From Escherichia phage PSa2: a stretch of 64,000 bases of DNA. The notes beneath the pieces were generated by a model. The model was not told where the DNA came from. It did no database searches and saw nothing but the letters and a program-made list of their open reading frames with translations. A program made the translations under genes and the position numbers. The stretch is taken from sequence record OL770310; one strand, given 5' to 3'. The stretch's first letter is position 1. The number at the start of each line of letters is the position of its first letter. Positions 4,127 through 23,511 of this stretch are shown here, piece after piece.

Positions 4127-4653
4127 TTAAATATCACCAATTCTTGTAAGAAAGAAAGTGTTTTATCTGCATTCTGTCCTGCTACATAGTCCATTCTAGT
4201 TGCCATTGAATTAGTTAAAGTAATGTGATGATGCAGATGTACATCAGCAGATAATGGTGTAGCTGAAGTAATAGTAGAGATATACGCCATATCTAGATGA
4301 TTTTTGACATACATTTCAAGAAGCAGAGTTGCTCCCCCTAATACTACAGTTACTTCTTCCTTGAGGAAATCAGGTAGACTGTATCCAATGTTACTTATGC
4401 GTGTGGCTGATCCTACAGAGTTAGGTAGTGGTCTATTTGCATAAATAAATAGGTCAGAATCTCCTAGTATTCTTTTTTGCAGAGTCTCAGGGAATGCTAA
4501 CCAAGTTCCTGCTCCTACAATAATATTGTCAGGTGCTAGAGAATCCAAAGTAGCATAGAAGATATCTAGTTCTTCTTTGAAAGAACCCCAAGGGAGCTTA
4601 CCATTGAGGCCGAACTCCCCATTCGGCCCAGTTGCATAGATTGCTGCTATCAT
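4123..4653 (-). CDS. frd: dihydrofolate reductase
   Basis: 176 aa between thyA and nrdB; N-terminal [22 protein letters not shown] resembles the DHFR NADPH/folate-binding start. Confidence 0.7.
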
Positions 4654-5798
4654 TAGAACATATCCTCAAATTCGTTGCCAAGATCTTTCAGAGTATCAGC
4701 AGAGGTTTCAGTTACTTGACCTACACGGTACGCTGCACCAATCTGAATCTCTTGCGGAGCAGGTTGTAAAGATGTAGTATCCAACCAGTTCATAATCCAC
4801 GGAATAGGGTTCTTAGTAATTACAGGTAAGTGGCTTGGCCATTCTACACCAATGTGCATAAATGCGTTACGTCCTACAAAGTAAAGGTATTCTTCAAGCA
4901 GTTCTGCATTCAAACCAATCAGACTGCGGCCTTTAAAAATAAAGTGACCCCATTCAATCTCAGTTTTCAGAGTTTTCAGGAGTTGTGCTGGTGCTTTAGC
5001 TAATGCTTCATCTACCAGATCTTTATCAAACTGCTGGAACATAATCTGGATGATAGCTTTAGACATTTGAGTATGCAGAGCTTCATCTTTAGCGATTAAT
5101 TGCAGGTTCTTAGCAATACCTTGCAGAATATCGTTCTCTGCTAGAGCAAAGGTACATGCAAAAGATGCGTAGAACTGCATTGCTTCCAGACCGTAGATTG
5201 CAAAGTAAGCATCTAACAGCTTAGCCTGAGTTTCACGTTTAACTTCAGGGAACTCAGTTTCTGGATAAGTATTATCACCCTGATGATCACGTACTGCAAG
5301 GAAATACTGACCTAACAGATACAATTCATCAAACAGTTCAACAGAATCTGCGATACGTGCAAATGCTTCTTGGTTTTTAGTTACAGAATCAATAAATTCT
5401 GCTGGGTCAGTCAGAACGTTACGAATAATGTTACTATACGCACGGCTATGTAGATCTTCGAAGTAGCTCCACTGCTTGAGCATACCTTCCAATTCAGGAC
5501 GGCTTACAAGTGGCATAATAGCTGCCTCAGGAGCACGACTAATGAAAGAATCTGTTTGAGTTTGCCACGCTAAGTTCAGGAGAGTAATTTCCTGGATATC
5601 ACGCGGAAGGTTTGGCCATTGTTTCTTATCAGCTTCCAGACTGATTTCAGTTTCAGTCCAAAATTGAGAACGTTGCAGAAGTGCTAGACGCTCAAGTTCA
5701 GGATGTGCTACACGAACGTAATCTGCGATACCAAGAGAATCGCCCAGGAAAAGGTCAGCGTTAGTATGATCCCAATTCAGGTTTAGTAAAGTAGTCAT
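4653..5798 (-). CDS. nrdB: ribonucleotide reductase class Ia small subunit
   Basis: 381 aa ferritin-like protein immediately downstream of nrdA; typical NrdB length and helix-rich sequence. Confidence 0.85.
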   Translation of the reverse strand: MTTLLNLNWDHTNADLFLGDSLGIADYVRVAHPELERLALLQRSQFWTETEISLEADKKQWPNLPRDIQEITLLNLAWQTQTDSFISRAPEAAIMPLVSRPELEGMLKQWSYFEDLHSRAYSNIIRNVLTDPAEFIDSVTKNQEAFARIADSVELFDELYLLGQYFLAVRDHQGDNTYPETEFPEVKRETQAKLLDAYFAIYGLEAMQFYASFACTFALAENDILQGIAKNLQLIAKDEALHTQMSKAIIQIMFQQFDKDLVDEALAKAPAQLLKTLKTEIEWGHFIFKGRSLIGLNAELLEEYLYFVGRNAFMHIGVEWPSHLPVITKNPIPWIMNWLDTTSLQPAPQEIQIGAAYRVGQVTETSADTLKDLGNEFEDMF

Positions 5799-8602: not shown

Positions 8603-9355
8603 TTACACCTTCCCCATATCCTTAAAGATATCGTAGAATGCTTTAGACTCTGGTGAGCGAACGTTGTCGATCAGTTCGATCATAGAGAAAGGAGAGTTTT
8701 CGTACTTCTCATAGACTTCCATAAGAAGTGCTAGACCTGAATCACCCTTGATGTCTTTCTGAGCTATATCCCCACAGATAATTAAACGACAATCTTGTCC
8801 TACACGAGTCAGGAGACAGATCATTGCTTCAACGGAGATATTCTGAGCTTCATCGACAATAACATAGGAGTTGTTGAAAGTTCGGCCACGGGCATGTTCG
8901 ATAGCCAGGAATTTGATTTTCTGACGTTCGACATATCCTTTGTAGGCGTGATCACCGATTGCCCATTTCATGCCATCGGCTATTGGTTCCAACCAAGGCT
9001 CTAGCTTTTCTGCTAGATCACCTGGGAGCATACCAAGAGATTTACCTAGAGGTTCGTTCGGACGCACGAGGATCACTTGCTCAATATCTGAGTGAATGTC
9101 TACGAGTTCCTGAGCTGCAATAACGGATGGAATAAAGGTTTTACCAGTACCTGGTTCACCAATACCCACAGTCACTGTGTTGTTCTTGATCATATTGATA
9201 TATGATTTTTGCTCACGGTTTTTACCAACTAGGGATTTAGCAACTGGATTGGCGTAATCACCAGAGAAATCTGCTTGAATTACGTTACTCTCATACTTGT
9301 TGCCACGCTTTCTTGAACCATTGCGGTTCTCTCTTTTTTGACGTGCTTTTCCCAT
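8603..9355 (-). CDS. phoH: PhoH-like ATPase
   Basis: Walker A GEPGTGKT, Walker B IVDEAQN. The ATG at 9355 is preceded by AGGAG; the track start at 9364 is a GTG. Confidence 0.85.
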   Translation of the reverse strand: MGKARQKRENRNGSRKRGNKYESNVIQADFSGDYANPVAKSLVGKNREQKSYINMIKNNTVTVGIGEPGTGKTFIPSVIAAQELVDIHSDIEQVILVRPNEPLGKSLGMLPGDLAEKLEPWLEPIADGMKWAIGDHAYKGYVERQKIKFLAIEHARGRTFNNSYVIVDEAQNISVEAMICLLTRVGQDCRLIICGDIAQKDIKGDSGLALLMEVYEKYENSPFSMIELIDNVRSPESKAFYDIFKDMGKV

Positions 9356-9457: not shown

Positions 9458-9649
9458 CTACAATTTTAAATAAGCCTATGATATTGCATTTAAATAAAAA
9501 ATTTGCTTGCTTTTATTGGGAGATGTATGGTACTAGATAATCATTTTATATCGCGTACACGGGCGCGTGATTATACTATTTTTAATAGAGGTTGGCAAAT
9601 AAAATTTTTTGACTCAGATCAATTTACAGAATGTTATAGTAAAATATTG

Positions 9650-12338: not shown

Positions 12339-13152
12339 TGCGTAGACTAATCGTTGTTAGTGGTGCAGGTTTGAGTGTAGATAGTGGTGTTCGTGCTTTC
12401 CGTACTGATACTGCTAGTGGGAAATCCTTGTGGGATGAGTACGATCTAGAGGAAGTATGTAATATTCATGCCTTTCGTGGTAATTTTACCATAAAACTCA
12501 TATGTTTTACAACAAACGTCGTGAAGAGTTACAAACTGTTGAACCTAACCTAGCTCATTTGCGTATTGGTGAATGGTATAAACGGTATCCAAATCAAGTG
12601 GTAAACCTTACTACCAATGTTGATGATCTAATCGAACGTGCTGGAGTGCCGAGAGAAGATATACTCCATATTCATGGATATCTGAAAGAAATTATTGTAG
12701 AGCATGCGTTCGACCAGACACGTGATGTTATTGATATTGGGTATAGTTCTATTGATCCAGATGACTTTGATTGGGTTAAACCTAACGTTATCTTCTTTGG
12801 TGAGGTTGCTCCTGCCTATAAAACAATGTATGAGGTTTTTGATGGTATCACCAGTCATGATATGATCATCATTGTTGGGTGCTCTAACCAAGTAATTAAC
12901 TTCTACTGGGAGCTATTTCCTGTTCTGAATCTTACTGCTGCAAAACTTATGGTAGTTAACTATTACGATAGTGCAGTAGCTATGGAACCAGGCTATCAGG
13001 GCATGACTCGTAGTGAAATGTATCAGTTAGAAGAACGTGGTATTCCTTACTGGAGTAAAGGTGCTGTGGATGCCTTTAGTGATCCCGATTTTATTGCTCG
13101 TGTGGAAGCTCATCTAGAAGGTAAACCCTATGTTCAACAAAAGCATGTGTGA
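12338..13152 (+). CDS. Sir2-family (sirtuin-like) NAD-dependent protein, reading frame interrupted near 12484..12505
   Basis: Frame-2 ORF 12338..12553 carries VVSGAGLSVDSGVRAFR...SLW (sirtuin NAD-binding signature); frame-1 ORF 12502..13152 carries FYNKRRE..PNLAHL, TTNVDDLIERAG, HIHG, VIFFGE, IIVGCS. Halves overlap in different frames. Confidence 0.6.
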
Positions 13153-20352: not shown

Positions 20353-20661
20353 ATGAGCGATCAGGTAAATCAAAACTATGAAGGACACATTGACGACCAG
20401 TCCATCATGCTTTGGGAGAAGGACGGGGAACAAGTAAGACTAACCGTATCTGAATTTCGTGGGAATCTATACATGGGAATTCGTTACTGGCTCCAAGATA
20501 TTACTGGAGAGTGGTTTCCAACGAAATCCGGCTTCTCTTTTCCTTATACCCTAGAAACTACATCACATCTATTTTACGCTTTTACGCAAATCCTCAGTGA
20601 ATCCGAGGTCTTGCATGAAGTACAGAAACGAGCTAAAGAACTCAAAGCCAAGAATGCCTAG
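20353..20661 (+). CDS. hypothetical protein
   Basis: 102 aa ORF. Confidence 0.5.
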   Translation: MSDQVNQNYEGHIDDQSIMLWEKDGEQVRLTVSEFRGNLYMGIRYWLQDITGEWFPTKSGFSFPYTLETTSHLFYAFTQILSESEVLHEVQKRAKELKAKNA

Positions 20662-20680
20662 TTCTTGGCTTTTTCTTTAT
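20646..20680 (+). terminator. rho-independent terminator overlapping stop codon
   Basis: AGCCAAGAA...TTCTTGGCT stem followed by TTTTTCTTT. Confidence 0.6.
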
Positions 20681-20688
20681 AAATGTAC

Positions 20689-20717
20689 TTGCTTTAGACT
20701 CAGTTTTGTTATATAAT
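20689..20717 (+). promoter_or_regulatory. early promoter module (TTGCTT-N17-TATAAT)
   Basis: -35 20689..20694, -10 20712..20717, leader ATTTATATAAATTGATGAGAGAT, ATG 20749. Confidence 0.65.
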
Positions 20718-20748
20718 ATTTATATAAATTGATGAGAGATATAAATAA

Positions 20749-21720
20749 ATGACTAATGTAAAAGAATTTATTAAACGCTGTCAAGAAGCATATTATCAAG
20801 GTATGTCTTTAATCTCTGACGAAGAATATGATCGTCTGATTAAAAGATTCCCACTAGAGGAAGAAATCGGACCGAAAGGTGATATTCCTCATTTGTATCG
20901 TATGTATTCTTTGCAGAAAGTCTATTACGGTCGCGGTGATAAAGCTCCATTCAATCCATTAGGTCAGGTTGAAACTGATAAGTTAGATGGTTGTGCGATT
21001 TCTCTATTATATATTAATGGTGAATTTGTTCAAGCGTTAACTCGTGGTAACGGTATTCTAGGGAATGATGTAACGCATAATGTTAAAATGCTGAACATCC
21101 CCAAAACTATTTCCCAAAAAGTACCAACTCAAATCACTGGTGAAGTTCTCATTACTAAAGAAGTAGAGAACAAACGTAACTACGCTTCGGGTGCTATTAA
21201 CCTGAAAGACAGCGATGATTTCATCCAACGTATTGGTGAAGGTGGTTTAATCTTCGTTGCATACGGTATCCAGTGTTCAGCGGAAACAGTCGGTATTACA
21301 GAAGCCTATTTAAAAGATATGCTTTGGCTAGAGAATGAGAACTTCTTGACAGTTGTTAATGTTCGTTCCTTTTTTAAATGGATTCCGACGGACGGTAAAG
21401 TTGTTCGTATTAACGACAACAATAAATTCTTCCGTGAAGGTTGGACTAATAAATTTCCTCGTGGTGCATTTGCTATTAAAGAGGATGAAGAAGGCGAAAT
21501 TACCACACTTGTTAAAGTTGAATGGCAAGTAGGGGCTTCTGGTAAAGTAACTCCAGTTGGTTATTTCGAACCGGTGATTATTGATGATGCCACAATCGTT
21601 AAAGCAACTCTTAATAACGTTGATTATATTAACGCTCTCGATTTAGAGATCGGTTGCCAGATTCGAGTGATTCGTGCTGGTGGTGTAATCCCTTGTATAG
21701 TAGAGCGAGTATACGACTAA
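20749..21720 (+). CDS. NAD-dependent DNA ligase, N-terminal adenylation half
   Basis: Adenylation motif ETDKLDGCAISLLY (KxDG) and NAD-ligase Ia-like N-terminus. Confidence 0.8.
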   Translation: MTNVKEFIKRCQEAYYQGMSLISDEEYDRLIKRFPLEEEIGPKGDIPHLYRMYSLQKVYYGRGDKAPFNPLGQVETDKLDGCAISLLYINGEFVQALTRGNGILGNDVTHNVKMLNIPKTISQKVPTQITGEVLITKEVENKRNYASGAINLKDSDDFIQRIGEGGLIFVAYGIQCSAETVGITEAYLKDMLWLENENFLTVVNVRSFFKWIPTDGKVVRINDNNKFFREGWTNKFPRGAFAIKEDEEGEITTLVKVEWQVGASGKVTPVGYFEPVIIDDATIVKATLNNVDYINALDLEIGCQIRVIRAGGVIPCIVERVYD

Positions 21721-21770
21721 TTCGTAACCCTTTGCTACCCGTTTACCATGTCGGAATTATAAAGTGGTTA

Positions 21771-21799
21771 TTGACATTTTCGCCGCTTAGGTATATACT
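21771..21799 (+). promoter_or_regulatory. promoter between ligase halves (TTGACA-N17-TATACT)
   Basis: -35 TTGACA 21771..21776, -10 TATACT 21794..21799; only an 8-codon ORF downstream. Confidence 0.45.
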
Positions 21800-21863
21800 A
21801 TTATCATTCAGTTGAGGGATAGAAAGTTATGGCGAGGGTAAGCAAAGTTAGTTAAAATTGTAG

Positions 21864-21892
21864 TTGCTAAATGCTTAAATACTTGCTATAAT
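21864..21892 (+). promoter_or_regulatory. early promoter module (TTGCTA-N17-TATAAT)
   Basis: -35 21864..21869, -10 21887..21892, leader ATTTATATAAATTGATAAGGAAG, ATG 21920. Confidence 0.6.
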
Positions 21893-21919
21893 ATTTATAT
21901 AAATTGATAAGGAAGAAAT

Positions 21920-22702
21920 TTGATGAAAATCGAAATTCCAACACAATGTCCCTCTTGTGGTTCTAAGCTAGATCTTGTCAACGGGCAATTATTCTGTAGG
22001 AATAAGTCCAACTGTCCAGCGCAATCAAGTAAGTTAATCGAGAACTTCTGCACAAAAATGAAGTTAAAGGGCTTTGGCCCGAAAACTATTGAGAAGCTGG
22101 AGCTGACTAAGATCTCAGAACTGTTTTACCTGACCGAAGAAGATTTGGTAGGAGCTGTGGGTAGCAAGGTTGCCGCTAAATTGATTAGCGAGTTAAATAC
22201 TAAGGTTCGCGGAGACATTGACTTTGGTTCAGTTCTCGGTTCTTTAGGAATTCCTCTTATTGGAGAGGTTGCAGCAAAGAAACTGTCCCAAAATTGCACT
22301 AGCTTCCACGATGTGAAGGCTGACGGCAAGGCTGGAGAAAATTACAAAACCTGGCTAAATTCCCCACAAGGCAAGGATGTTATTGAATTACCGTGGAAAT
22401 TCTCAACTGGTATCCGAGGTGCTAAAGCTGACATCATCATTACAGATGATTTAGTTGCCCAGCCAAATGGAATCACGGTCTGTATTACCGGATCTTTGCA
22501 AGATTTTGCAAATCGAACGGATGCAACAAACTATTTAGAAAGTCTAGGGTATACGGTTAAGAAGTCCGTTACCAAAGACGTCAAATACCTAATCTGTGAG
22601 GATGAATCAAAACGTTCTTCCTCATCTTATAAGAAAGCCGAAACGAATGGGATAGAAATCCTGTCGATTAAAGAACTATTGGAGAAAAATAATAATGTCT
22701 AA
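21920..22702 (+). CDS. NAD-dependent DNA ligase, C-terminal half (Zn finger / HhH / BRCT-like)
   Basis: Cys4 zinc finger CPSCGSKLD...CRNKSNCPAQ typical of LigA, in a separate ORF from the adenylation domain. Confidence 0.8.
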   Translation: MMKIEIPTQCPSCGSKLDLVNGQLFCRNKSNCPAQSSKLIENFCTKMKLKGFGPKTIEKLELTKISELFYLTEEDLVGAVGSKVAAKLISELNTKVRGDIDFGSVLGSLGIPLIGEVAAKKLSQNCTSFHDVKADGKAGENYKTWLNSPQGKDVIELPWKFSTGIRGAKADIIITDDLVAQPNGITVCITGSLQDFANRTDATNYLESLGYTVKKSVTKDVKYLICEDESKRSSSSYKKAETNGIEILSIKELLEKNNNV

Positions 22703-23462
22703 ACTGAACTGGAACGTAGAAGGTGTAACCGAGTCTCTGAAAGCAAAAGCCACTGCTCTGGGTGTTGCTGTAATCTCTCAAGAACAAGTAGCTGCTATCG
22801 CTGCTGAACTGGCTACCGAGACTGGTAAAGACGTTACCGCTCGCTCTGTTGGCTCTAAGCTGCGTAAAGAAGGTTTCGAAGTACAGAAAGCTAACGAAGT
22901 ACAGAAATCCCCGTGGACTCCTGAGCAGGAAGCTGAACTGGTTGATTTCCTGAACGCTCATGCGGGTCAGTATACTTACGCTGAAATCGCTGCTGCTGTA
23001 GCTGGTGGTCAGTTCGGTGCTAAGCAGGTTCAGGGTAAGATCCTGAGTCTGGAAATGACTGCTTCTGTTAAGCCAACCGAAAAAGCTGCTGCTGTTCGTT
23101 CCTTCACTCCTGACGAAGAAACTGATTTCGTTAATCAGGTTGTTGCTGGTGCTACTATTGAAGCTATCGCTGCTCACTTTGGTCGCAATATTAAGCAGAT
23201 CCGTGGTAAAGCTCTGAGTCTGCTTCGTGAAGGTCGTATCGCTGCTATGCCGGTACAGGAAACTTCAAGTGCTAAAACTCGTGAAGATCTGTTAGAAGGT
23301 CTGGATCTGGCTAACATGACTGTTGCTGAGATCGCTGAGAAAACTGGTAAGTCTGAGCGCGGTGTTAAATCTATGCTGTCTCGTCGTGGTCTGGTTGCTA
23401 AGGACTATGATGGTGCCGCTAAGCGTGCTAAACTGGATGCAAAAGCTGCGGCTGCTGAATAA
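22695..23462 (+). CDS. protein with four tandem HTH-like repeats, host-like codon usage
   Basis: Four ~35 aa repeats (AAIAAELATETGKDVTARSVGSKLRKEG / AEIAAAVAGGQFGAKQVQGKILSL / EAIAAHFGRNIKQIRGKALSLLREG / AEIAEKTGKSERGVKSMLSRRG). Confidence 0.6.
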   Translation: MSKLNWNVEGVTESLKAKATALGVAVISQEQVAAIAAELATETGKDVTARSVGSKLRKEGFEVQKANEVQKSPWTPEQEAELVDFLNAHAGQYTYAEIAAAVAGGQFGAKQVQGKILSLEMTASVKPTEKAAAVRSFTPDEETDFVNQVVAGATIEAIAAHFGRNIKQIRGKALSLLREGRIAAMPVQETSSAKTREDLLEGLDLANMTVAEIAEKTGKSERGVKSMLSRRGLVAKDYDGAAKRAKLDAKAAAAE

Positions 23463-23479: not shown

Positions 23480-23511
23480 AAGGGGAGGGGGCTATGCTCC
23501 TTCCCCTTTTT
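23480..23511 (+). terminator. rho-independent terminator (imperfect stem)
   Basis: AAGGGGA...TCCCCTT stem followed by TTTTT; a second GAAA-loop hairpin GCACGAAAGCGTGC at 23521..23534. Confidence 0.5.

What the first reader, a model, noticed from the sequence alone, without database searches (positions are those of the whole stretch)
20749..22702. NAD-dependent DNA ligase encoded as two separately initiated ORFs
The adenylation half (KLDG motif) ends at 21720 and the Zn-finger/HhH/BRCT half starts at 21920. The 199 bp gap contains two promoters (TTGACA-N17-TATACT at 21771; module at 21864) and a new SD/ATG, so the halves are expressed as separate polypeptides rather than through an intron or frameshift. 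A two-subunit LigA is unusual for this enzyme class. The ligase shares NAD+ as substrate with the nearby Sir2-like gene.
Basis: partly seen in the sequence, partly recalled or inferred. Interest (0 to 1): 0.5.

Follow-up and report, generated by a model that had tools for sequence, protein, structure and literature searches.

The report
Known split DNA ligase of T5-like phages
The window comes from a T5-like Salmonella/E. coli phage, and the two adjacent genes are the long-known "subunit A / subunit B" split of its NAD-dependent DNA ligase, so the reading is correct but the feature is ordinary for this phage family.

Summary
Observation confirmed.

- **Source:** the window is about 99.8% identical to Epseptimavirus phages SE24 and EPS7.
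- **ligA (20749-21720, 323 aa):** carries domain Ia, the adenylation domain (K78-L-D-G) and the OB fold.
- **ligB (conserved ATG at 21923, not TTG at 21920; ends 22702; 259 aa):** carries the four-cysteine Zn finger, HhH and BRCT.
- **Gap (202 nt):** has stops in all three frames and no Rfam match. It holds two promoter-like sites conserved across at least six genera, plus an SD.
- **Split point:** the variable OB-to-Zn linker, about E. coli LigA residues 391-401.
- **Selection:** both genes are under strong purifying selection and diverge in lockstep.
- **Prior knowledge:** about 930 phage records carry the pair, usually annotated as subunits A and B. [quoted passage not shown] PDB 9HU3/9I5I hold both chains of a Providencia-phage orthologue.

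New side results:
- Uncultured T5-like contigs carry an unsplit 555-586 aa orthologue at the syntenic position.
- The same linker is split in at least two other LigA lineages.
- The gap hosts a GIY-YIG homing endonuclease in two relatives.

No functional link to the Sir2-like gene was found.

The parts
20644..20672 (+). Terminator-like hairpin at the end of the upstream PC4-like gene. It marks the 5' boundary of the ligA-ligB-D5 unit.
   Evidence: 12-bp stem followed by a T run; PC4 domain in ORF 20353-20661.
20689..20733 (+). ligA promoter-like module: -35 TTGCTT (20689-20694), 17-nt spacer, -10 TATAAT (20712-20717). The 22-nt block TATAATATTTATATAAATTGAT is shared exactly with the ligB promoter P2.
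   Evidence: The 22-mer occurs exactly twice in the 64 kb window, with 0 expected. Alignment of the two upstream regions. Ten looser copies of this promoter class in the window against 0.7 expected.
20749..21720 (+). ligA, ligase subunit A (323 aa): short domain Ia, nucleotidyltransferase domain (K78xDG, E132, D215-G216, K244) and OB fold.
   Evidence: [quoted passage not shown] E=2e-106 to PDB 9hu3_A.
21721..21922 (.). Intergenic gap of 202 nt. It is non-coding, has stops in all three frames and 32% GC.
   Evidence: no Rfam match. The gap length (192-202 nt) is kept in Epseptimavirus, Tequintavirus, Sugarlandvirus and Priunavirus.
21771..21799 (+). Promoter-like site P1, TTGACA-N17-TATACT. 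Its downstream TTGAGGGA resembles the SD-like tail of the same promoter class.
   Evidence: TTGAC and TATA.T are invariant in eight phages of at least six genera.
21864..21908 (+). Promoter-like site P2, TTGCTA-N17-TATAAT with TG upstream, plus the shared 22-nt module.
   Evidence: The -10 TATAAT is invariant in all eight phages; the -35 keeps TTGC in seven of them.
21909..21915 (+). Shine-Dalgarno sequence AAGGAAG for ligB, 7 nt before the ATG.
   Evidence: Read directly from the sequence; purine-rich block conserved.
21923..22702 (+). ligB, ligase subunit B (259 aa): Zn finger (C9, C12, C25, C31), HhH region and BRCT.
   Evidence: Annotated at these coordinates in SE24. E=1e-79 to PDB 9hu3_B.
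22695..23462 (+). D5 gene (DNA-binding or transcription protein with HTH/sigma-70 region-4-like motifs). It overlaps the ligB stop by 8 nt, so it is probably co-transcribed and translationally coupled.
   Evidence: The ligase-D5 adjacency also holds in contigs with the unsplit ligase.
23480..23508 (+). Strong terminator-like hairpin after D5. It marks the 3' boundary of the unit.
   Evidence: 13-bp stem, 8 GC pairs, T run.

Best explanation
This is the ligA/ligB gene pair of a T5-like phage (Epseptimavirus, Demerecviridae): an NAD+-dependent DNA ligase made as two polypeptides.

Subunit A (Ia, NTase, OB) is the catalytic core. It reacts with NAD+ to form the lysyl-AMP intermediate at K78 and carries out nick adenylation and sealing. 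Subunit B (Zn finger, HhH, BRCT) is the DNA-binding half. In single-chain LigA this half completes the protein clamp around nicked DNA. The cut falls exactly in the short variable linker between the OB fold and the Zn finger, so each half is a set of intact domains that can reassemble non-covalently into the functional enzyme.

The genes sit in a terminator-bounded early unit, ligA-ligB-D5. ligA has its own promoter. ligB, and with it the overlapping D5 gene, has two further conserved promoters, so B and D5 can be made independently of A and probably in excess.

Shown here: gene structure, domain content, split point, conservation, purifying selection, and the existence of a solved two-chain orthologue.

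Inferred: that A and B assemble on DNA, that the promoters fire, and the stoichiometry.

The ancestral state was most likely a single chain, because unsplit orthologues occupy the same syntenic slot in uncultured T5-like phages.
For: - **Identity:** 99.8% nucleotide identity to SE24/EPS7 with A/B annotation. T5 ligA and ligB are cited in PMC3632103.
- **Domains:**
- **Split point:** A ends at about E. coli residue 393 and B starts at about 400. Concatenated A+B aligns colinearly at 34-41% identity with 555-586 aa single-chain relatives, and the junction falls in the only length-variable linker.
- **Solved orthologue:** PDB 9HU3/9I5I hold both chains; chain B is 100% Providencia phage PR1/PSTCR5 LigB.
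- **Selection and co-evolution:** dN/dS is 0.04 and 0.07. A and B are 96/96, 73/73 and 56/56% identical across three genus comparisons.
- **No way to join the halves:** stops in all frames and no intron model match.
- **Own expression signals:** conserved SD, ATG and tandem promoters ahead of ligB, even where other genes have been inserted.
- **Precedent for A alone:** a LigA truncated to Ia-NTase-OB still self-adenylates (LigN-deltaC, PMC1684257), which fits A as an autonomous catalytic core.
- **Unsplit syntenic orthologues:** ligase-D5-DnaB-DnaG-PolA in contigs L014-L017.
Against: - No experiment on this phage's proteins was available here. I found no paper describing activity of the reconstituted A+B enzyme or the 9HU3/9I5I structures.
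- Promoter activity is inferred from consensus and conservation only, and the scan found no excess of promoter-like sites over shuffles.
- No terminator separates ligA from ligB, so a bicistronic transcript also exists in all likelihood and the two are not strictly separate transcription units.
- Motif IV has Arg (R220) where E. coli LigA has the essential Lys290. This is invariant in the whole clade, unsplit members included. It is a clade peculiarity whose catalytic effect is untested.
Confidence: 0.9

Rival explanations
1. The halves are joined into one chain after transcription or translation, by a group I/II intron, a split intein, or programmed frameshifting or readthrough.
For: Phage replication genes are often interrupted by introns and inteins. 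The halves are adjacent, on the same strand and in the right order.
Against: - The gap is only 202 nt and has no Rfam hit at E<=1.
- There are 5-7 stops in each frame and the ORFs are in different frames.
- LigA homology runs to the ends of both ORFs, so there is no intein sequence.
- ligB has a conserved SD and ATG.
- The PDB entries carry two separate chains, with B starting at that Met.
- In relatives the gap holds whole genes in the same orientation, such as a DprA-like gene and a homing endonuclease. That is hard to reconcile with an intron.
Confidence: 0.02
2. The split is a sequencing or assembly artefact, or a decaying pseudogene, and the phage relies on host LigA.
For: One database record (EPS7, CP000917) does carry a 1-nt deletion that truncates its annotated ligB. 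This shows that errors or lesions occur at this locus.
Against: The same split, with intact ORFs, is found in about 930 independent phage records from many genera. dN/dS is 0.04-0.07. All catalytic and Zn-binding residues are conserved.
Confidence: 0.01
3. A and B are functionally uncoupled. A works alone as a minimal ligase, and B (Zn-HhH-BRCT), made from its own strong promoters together with D5, has a separate role such as a nick- or DNA-binding factor or a recruitment scaffold.
For: - ligB has two dedicated conserved promoters and is coupled to D5 rather than to ligA.
- In Vibrio phages up to three genes separate A from B.
- Ia-NTase-OB fragments self-adenylate without the C-terminal half.
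Against: - A and B always co-occur and diverge at identical rates.
- Unsplit orthologues exist at the same locus.
- Both chains are deposited together in 9HU3/9I5I.
- From established LigA biochemistry (E. coli LigA domain-deletion studies and the 2OWO clamp structure; my recollection, not checked here), the Zn-HhH module is needed for nick sealing.
Confidence: 0.07
4. An origin hypothesis, compatible with the best explanation. The split was created when a free-standing homing endonuclease gene inserted into the OB-Zn linker, producing 'genes in pieces'. The endonuclease was later lost from most lineages, leaving the promoter-bearing gap.
For: - GIY-YIG endonuclease genes sit directly after the ligA stop in Klebsiella phage AmPh_EK80 and Serratia phage Kamaji.
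- In AmPh_EK80 the last ~28 nt of ligA are synonymously recoded next to the insertion, a typical target-immunity footprint.
- An unrelated LigA lineage is split at the same linker with a LAGLIDADG endonuclease between the halves.
Against: - The AmPh_EK80 insertion is recent. Its flanks are 99-100% identical to endonuclease-free IME260, so it invaded a gap that already existed.
- Only 2 phage records carry this endonuclease.
- Another split LigA (L019) has a 37-nt gap and no endonuclease.
- The gap's promoters are conserved and functional-looking, not decaying remnants.
Confidence: 0.3

Closest known systems
Bacteriophage T5 LigA/LigB (NAD-dependent DNA ligase subunits A and B; AAU05253/AAU05254; Wang et al. 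2005 Virology 332:45, as cited in PMC1684257 and PMC3632103)
   Same: Same gene pair, order and neighbours (D2, D3, ligA, ligB, D5, helicase, primase, polymerase). Subunit A is about 95% identical at the protein level to T5-type phages (T5_ev219). The ~202-nt gap with both promoters is the same.
   Different: Only species- or genus-level sequence differences (Epseptimavirus against Tequintavirus). Some relatives carry extra small ORFs between the ligA promoter and ligA, which this window lacks.
Providencia phage vB_PreS_PR1 / PSTCR5 ligase, PDB 9HU3 and 9I5I (chains 'DNA ligase (NAD(+))' and 'DNA ligase subunit B')
   Same: Orthologous two-chain enzyme with full-length matches (A E=2e-106, B E=1e-79; 56% identity for each). 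The split point is the same, and so is the promoter pair in a 192-nt gap.
   Different: Different genus (Priunavirus). I could not read the entries or find an associated paper, so I do not know what state they capture (apo, NAD+ or DNA-bound).
Single-chain bacterial LigA (E. coli LigA, PDB 2OWO; T. filiformis 1V9P/1DGS)
   Same: Same domain order (Ia, NTase, OB, Zn, HhH, BRCT), the same catalytic motifs and four Zn cysteines. The chemistry is presumably the same NAD+-dependent three-step reaction.
   Different: - Two polypeptides instead of one.
- A is about 70 residues shorter than the equivalent E. coli segment 1-393, with a compact Ia and NTase.
- Motif IV has Arg where E. coli has Lys290.
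- Only about 25-30% identity.
Unsplit 555-586 aa ligases of uncultured T5-like phages (P0036, P0040 and others; contigs L014-L017)
   Same: Same compact LigA clade (38-46% identity to A, 36% to B) and the same synteny: PC4-like gene, ligase, D5, DnaB, DnaG, PolA.
   Different: One continuous ORF, with an 8-25 residue linker where this phage has a stop, 202 nt and a new start.
'Genes in pieces' made by free-standing homing endonucleases in T4-like phages. Examples are nrdA split by mobE in Aeromonas phage Aeh1 and split gp43 DNA polymerases. This is my recollection of the literature and was not checked here.
   Same: An essential replication enzyme cut at a domain boundary into two adjacent genes that reassemble non-covalently. 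Endonuclease genes are found at the junction in some relatives.
   Different: In this window and most Demerecviridae the gap holds promoters, not an endonuclease. A causal role for an endonuclease in the original split is not shown.

Membership tests
NAD+-dependent DNA ligase (LigA family) | Nucleotidyltransferase domain with motif I KxDG (the lysine that is adenylated) and motifs III, IIIa, IV and V | tested here: met
   Pfam PF01653 at 3e-23. K78-L-D80-G81, G131-E132, F169/Y172, D215-G216 and K244 are invariant in alignment A4. One deviation: motif IV ends in R220, where T. filiformis and E. coli have Lys (alignment).
NAD+-dependent DNA ligase (LigA family) | N-terminal domain Ia that binds the NMN moiety and confers NAD+ specificity (the YY...SDxEYDxL signature) | tested here: inconclusive
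   The signature A-Y15-Y16-Q-G...S-D24-E-E-Y27-D28-R-L is present and aligns weakly to T. filiformis domain Ia (domain 1, 2 bits). Y15, G18, D24 and D28 are invariant in the clade. The Pfam Nlig-Ia model did not hit this protein. Cofactor use was not measured.
NAD+-dependent DNA ligase (LigA family) | OB-fold domain directly after the NTase domain | tested here: met
   PF03120 at 9e-22, residues 252-321. Aligns to E. coli LigA residues 284-390.
NAD+-dependent DNA ligase (LigA family) | Four-cysteine Zn finger, HhH DNA-binding domain and C-terminal BRCT | tested here: met
   All three are on subunit B. C9, C12, C25 and C31 align with E. coli C408, C411, C426 and C432, and the HhH region aligns to residues 432-529. 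BRCT PF00533 at 1e-8. HHH_2 scores only 21.6 bits, below its cutoff of 27.
NAD+-dependent DNA ligase (LigA family) | All domains on one polypeptide (the canonical cellular architecture) | tested here: not met
   Two ORFs in different frames separated by 202 nt with stops in all frames. This is a deviation in architecture, not in homology.
Split LigA/LigB ligase of T5-like phages (Demerecviridae) | An A gene of about 320 aa (Ia-NTase-OB) followed on the same strand by a B gene of about 250-260 aa (Zn-HhH-BRCT), cut at the OB-Zn linker | tested here: met
   Coordinates are identical to the SE24 annotation.
Split LigA/LigB ligase of T5-like phages (Demerecviridae) | Location in the early replication module, immediately upstream of D5, the replicative helicase, primase and DNA polymerase | tested here: met
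   The same order is seen in Sugarlandvirus, Priunavirus, Novosibvirus, Vibrio phages and Serratia phage Kamaji.
Split LigA/LigB ligase of T5-like phages (Demerecviridae) | High sequence identity to T5-type ligA and ligB | tested here: met
   Subunit A is 95-100% identical at the protein level to hundreds of Markadamsvirinae records, including T5_ev219. Against Tequintavirus HdH2, A is 96% and B is 96% identical.
Split LigA/LigB ligase of T5-like phages (Demerecviridae) | A and B form an active heteromeric ligase | not testable with these tools
   The only indirect support is that both chains of the PR1 orthologue are deposited together in PDB 9HU3/9I5I. I found no biochemical paper.

The most novel reading that the evidence does not exclude
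The OB-to-Zn linker of LigA is a recurrent breakpoint in phages. It may be opened, or at least exploited, by homing endonucleases. In T5-like phages the break was then fixed because it let a strong tandem promoter pair sit in front of ligB-D5. That would make the DNA-binding subunit B, together with D5, separately and more abundantly than the catalytic subunit A. If so, B could occupy nicks without sealing them, which might matter for a phage whose virion DNA carries programmed single-strand nicks. None of this is excluded by the data, but only the recurrence of the breakpoint and the conservation of the promoters are shown.
Probability: 0.15. Interest if true: 0.45.

Novelty: already known. 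Interest (0 to 1): 0.12.

Why it matters
As stated, the finding re-discovers a textbook-level annotation of T5-like phages, so it does not change what is known.

Its residual value is comparative. Split and unsplit orthologues coexist at the same syntenic position. The same linker is broken independently in other phage LigA lineages. Homing endonucleases with a recoded target sit at the junction in some relatives. Together these make the locus a clean natural case for studying how an essential multi-domain enzyme tolerates being cut, and how mobile genes and promoters colonise the cut.

It is also a natural design template for engineered split LigA enzymes.

Tried and rejected
1. **Structured leader RNA.** The P1-initiated leader (21806-21940) folds unusually well in this window (-32 kcal/mol, z = -4.67). 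RNAalifold on six genera found no shared structure at all, so I do not propose an RNA element.

2. **Rfam.** A scan of 21500-22100 at E<=1 gave nothing.

3. **Mini-ORF after P1.** ATG 21829, MARVSKVS*. It is not conserved in frame or length in relatives (read from the alignment), so I rejected it as a gene.

4. **Length differences among close relatives.** Matches are 191-458 bp longer in some. I suspected variable gap content, but the extra DNA is small ORFs upstream of ligA, and the A-B gap stays at 202 nt.

5. **AlphaFold2 of subunit B from a single sequence.** It gave pLDDT 33.8. That is unusable, so I ran no fold search.

6. **Literature.** Searches for the 9HU3/9I5I paper, or any biochemical study of a T5-type two-subunit ligase, found nothing in the held library.

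7. **Neighbour-joining tree** of 82 A-type sequences. Most unsplit forms are basal, but P0036 and P0040 nest among split forms. Internal branches are very short and unsupported, so the number of split or fusion events is unresolved.

8. **Sir2 link.** The SIR2-family ORF exists, but it is 7.6 kb away, outside the transcription unit, and I found no evidence of coupling.
Full report
**What is in the sequence**

The region holds two same-strand ORFs. ORF A is 20749-21720 (323 aa). ORF B is 21920/21923-22702 (260 or 259 aa).

Pfam places the NAD-ligase adenylation domain (3e-23) and the NAD-ligase OB fold (9e-22) on A. It places BRCT (1e-8) and a sub-threshold HhH on B. Against solved structures:
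- A residues 214-320 align to E. coli LigA (2OWO) residues 284-390.
- B residues 3-122 align to 2OWO residues 402-529, including the four Zn cysteines.
- The BRCT of B aligns to 2OWO residues 585-666.

So the cut lies in the few residues that link the OB fold to the Zn finger.

The gap is 202 nt counted to the ATG at 21923. The two ORFs are in different frames, and the gap carries 5-7 stops in every frame. No Rfam family matches it.

**Where the window comes from, and what is already annotated**

The 2.2 kb region is 99.8% identical to Salmonella phage SE24 and Escherichia phage EPS7 (Epseptimavirus, Demerecviridae). It matches 456 phage records by megablast. [quoted passage not shown]

T5's ligA and ligB (AAU05253, AAU05254) are listed in PMC3632103. 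[quoted passage not shown] The Stitch genome note mentions the A and B subunits and links them to sealing the nicked T5-type genome.

The Protein Data Bank holds two entries, 9HU3 and 9I5I, with a 339-aa "DNA ligase (NAD(+))" chain (E=2e-106 to A) and a 248-aa "DNA ligase subunit B" chain (E=1e-79 to B). Chain B is 100% identical to LigB of Providencia phages PR1 and PSTCR5.

The phenomenon is therefore known, widely annotated and structurally studied.

**Is it real and functional?**

Yes, on three counts.
- About 930 phage records encode a full-length B-type protein. A-type proteins at 48% identity or more occur in Salmonella, Escherichia, Klebsiella, Proteus, Providencia, Serratia, Aeromonas and Vibrio phages.
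- Against Tequintavirus HdH2, dN/dS is 0.04 for ligA and 0.07 for ligB.
- A and B diverge in lockstep: 96/96, 73/73 and 56/56% protein identity to three other genera. This is what is expected of two parts of one enzyme.

One record (EPS7) has a 1-nt deletion at window position 22201 that truncates its annotated ligB. The window does not have it.

**Expression signals**

The unit is bracketed by terminator-like hairpins at 20644-20672 and 23480-23508. There is none between ligA and ligB.

ligA is preceded by TTGCTT-17-TATAAT. ligB is preceded by two sites:
- P1: TTGACA-17-TATACT, at 21771-21799.
- P2: TTGCTA-17-TATAAT, at 21864-21892.

The simple scan finds no more promoter-like sites here than in shuffled sequence (6 against 6.7), so the scan alone proves nothing. 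Two other results carry the weight.
- The 22-nt block from the -10 hexamer onward (TATAATATTTATATAAATTGAT) is identical upstream of ligA and ligB and occurs nowhere else in the window. It belongs to a promoter class with ten looser copies in the window against 0.7 expected. From memory, this resembles the classic strong T5 early promoters.
- The -35 and -10 hexamers of P1 and P2 stay largely invariant in eight phages of at least six genera (only the P2 -35 differs, in Vibrio phage Kronos), while the sequence around them diverges.

The ATG at 21923 and a purine-rich SD are conserved. The TTG at 21920 is not.

ligB overlaps the D5 start by 8 nt. P1 and P2 therefore probably serve ligB and D5 together. 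This step is inference.

**What fills the gap in relatives**

The gap is 192-202 nt in Epseptimavirus, Tequintavirus, Sugarlandvirus IME260 and Priunavirus. Elsewhere it is occupied:
- a 55-aa ORF in Proteus phage 1;
- two small ORFs in Vibrio phage D117;
- three ORFs, including a DprA-like gene, in Vibrio phage Kronos;
- a GIY-YIG homing endonuclease in Klebsiella phage AmPh_EK80 and, at 58% identity, in Serratia phage Kamaji.

In every case the insertion lies between the ligA stop and P1, and the P1-P2-ligB block stays intact.

Comparing AmPh_EK80 with endonuclease-free IME260 is informative. The flanks are 99-100% identical, and the 651-bp insertion begins right after the ligA stop. The last ~28 nt of ligA are densely but synonymously recoded (IPRIVERVYE* against IPKIVERVYE*). 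This is the usual footprint of a homing endonuclease that has immunised its own target. It also shows that this insertion is recent, and so secondary to the split.

**Unsplit and independently split relatives**

An exhaustive HMMER search of 1.84 billion representatives with subunit A gave 35 top hits of 304-339 aa. From rank 36 onward it also gave 555-586 aa proteins at 38-46% identity.

Concatenated A+B aligns colinearly with these at 34-41% identity. The junction falls in a linker of variable length, and B alone matches the C-terminal half of P0036 at 36%. The contigs that encode P0036 and P0040 show the order ligase, D5 homologue (37-44% identical), DnaB, DnaG, PolA. That is the order in the window.

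So unsplit orthologues persist in uncultured T5-like phages, and the split is a derived state. This direction is inferred from the fact that cellular LigA is single-chain. A crude neighbour-joining tree could not resolve how many times splitting occurred.

Two more distant LigA lineages are cut at the same linker:
- L018 has a 402-aa A half, a LAGLIDADG endonuclease ORF, then a B half starting MQNIEMPEICPSCG.
- L019 has a 388-aa A half, a 37-nt gap, then a 278-aa B half starting MSYMLPTKCPSCG.

The OB-Zn linker is thus a recurrent, tolerated breakpoint.

**Mechanism**

Shown here: the domain split, the conservation, the purifying selection, and the fact that the orthologue's two chains were solved together.

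Drawn from established LigA biochemistry: the Ia-NTase-OB part performs NAD+-dependent self-adenylation. The LigN-deltaC experiment in PMC1684257 confirms this for such a fragment. From my recollection of the E. coli LigA work, not checked here, the Zn-HhH part is required to clamp nicked DNA for sealing.

Inferred: A and B associate non-covalently, probably on DNA, to rebuild the LigA clamp, and B and D5 are expressed partly independently of A.

**Rivals**

Intron, intein or frameshift joining, artefact or pseudogene, and functionally independent A and B are each argued against above and in the dedicated fields. Origin through a homing endonuclease is plausible but unproven.

**Sir2 remark**

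A SIR2-family ORF is present at 12502-13152. It lies 7.6 kb upstream, about ten genes away and outside the terminator-bounded unit. The shared cofactor is the only connection I found.

**Verdict**

The novelty is nil, since this is an already-known hallmark of T5-like phages. The comparative side results have modest interest.

Noticed in passing
window 22201, compared with L001 (EPS7, CP000917.1) around locus position 9602: The EPS7 GenBank record lacks one base here relative to the window. This frameshifts its ligB, and the record annotates only a 130-aa C-terminal 'subunit B'. It is probably a sequencing error in that 2008 record rather than biology.
   Followed up: yes
L007 (Klebsiella phage AmPh_EK80) 1527-2209, against L006 (IME260) 1527-1558: A 651-bp GIY-YIG homing endonuclease insertion sits right after the ligA stop. 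Its flanks are 99-100% identical to the endonuclease-free relative, and the last ~28 nt of ligA are synonymously recoded. This looks like a textbook homing and target-immunity footprint. A 58%-identical endonuclease sits at the same place in Serratia phage Kamaji (L013 2100-2714).
   Followed up: yes
L018 26-2259; L019 4001-6041: Two other metagenomic LigA lineages are split at exactly the same OB-Zn linker. One has a LAGLIDADG endonuclease ORF between the halves. The other has only a 37-nt gap and sits on a phage-like contig that also has a baseplate Phage_base_V gene.
   Followed up: partly
L014 6001-7674; L015 5790-7490; L016; L017: Uncultured T5-like contigs carry an unsplit 557-566 aa ligase in the same slot (PC4-like, ligase, D5, DnaB, DnaG, PolA). 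In L015 the ligase overlaps the D5 start by 8 nt, as ligB does in the window.
   Followed up: yes
window ligA residue R220 (codon about 21406-21408): Motif IV reads D-G-K-V-V-R. The position of the essential Lys290 of E. coli LigA is Arg here, and the Arg is invariant across this compact ligase clade, split and unsplit members alike. The NTase and Ia domains are also about 70 residues shorter than in E. coli.
   Followed up: partly
window 20689-20748, compared with L002 448-648, L003 448-915, L004 449-721 and L005 448-636: In many close relatives one or two small hypothetical ORFs (62-90 aa; some assigned to VOG7040) sit between the ligA promoter and ligA, overlapping the ligA start. The window has none. 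This accounts for the 180-460 bp length differences among near-identical phages.
   Followed up: partly
window 21806-21940: The RNA that would start at P1 folds into a long hairpin pairing 21826-21836 with the P2 -10 region (z = -4.67). The structure is not conserved in other genera.
   Followed up: yes
window 12502-13152: SIR2-family ORF (Pfam 1.8e-14), 216 aa, matching only profile positions 48-178 of 180. SE24 annotates a longer, 283-aa Sir2-like protein. [quoted passage not shown] I did not look for these genes in the window.
   Followed up: partly
L012 (SE24) 4637-5155 and 8892-9035, minus strand; roughly window 4.6-5.9 kb and 8.9-9.4 kb, where coordinates are shifted by indels: SE24 annotates a homing endonuclease between the ribonucleotide reductase small and large subunit genes, and a short HNH endonuclease fragment nearby. 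These are further signs of mobile endonuclease traffic in the replication and nucleotide-metabolism region.
   Followed up: no
window 20353-20661 and 22695-23462: The gene just upstream of ligA has a PC4 (ssDNA-binding transcriptional coactivator) domain at 1.6e-8. D5, downstream of ligB, shows sigma-70 region-4-like and HTH matches. Both neighbours are kept next to the ligase in distant and unsplit relatives.
   Followed up: partly
window 23494 compared with 23809: The longest helicase ORF starts at 23494, inside the D5 terminator hairpin. SE24 and EPS7 annotate later starts, which seem more plausible.
   Followed up: no
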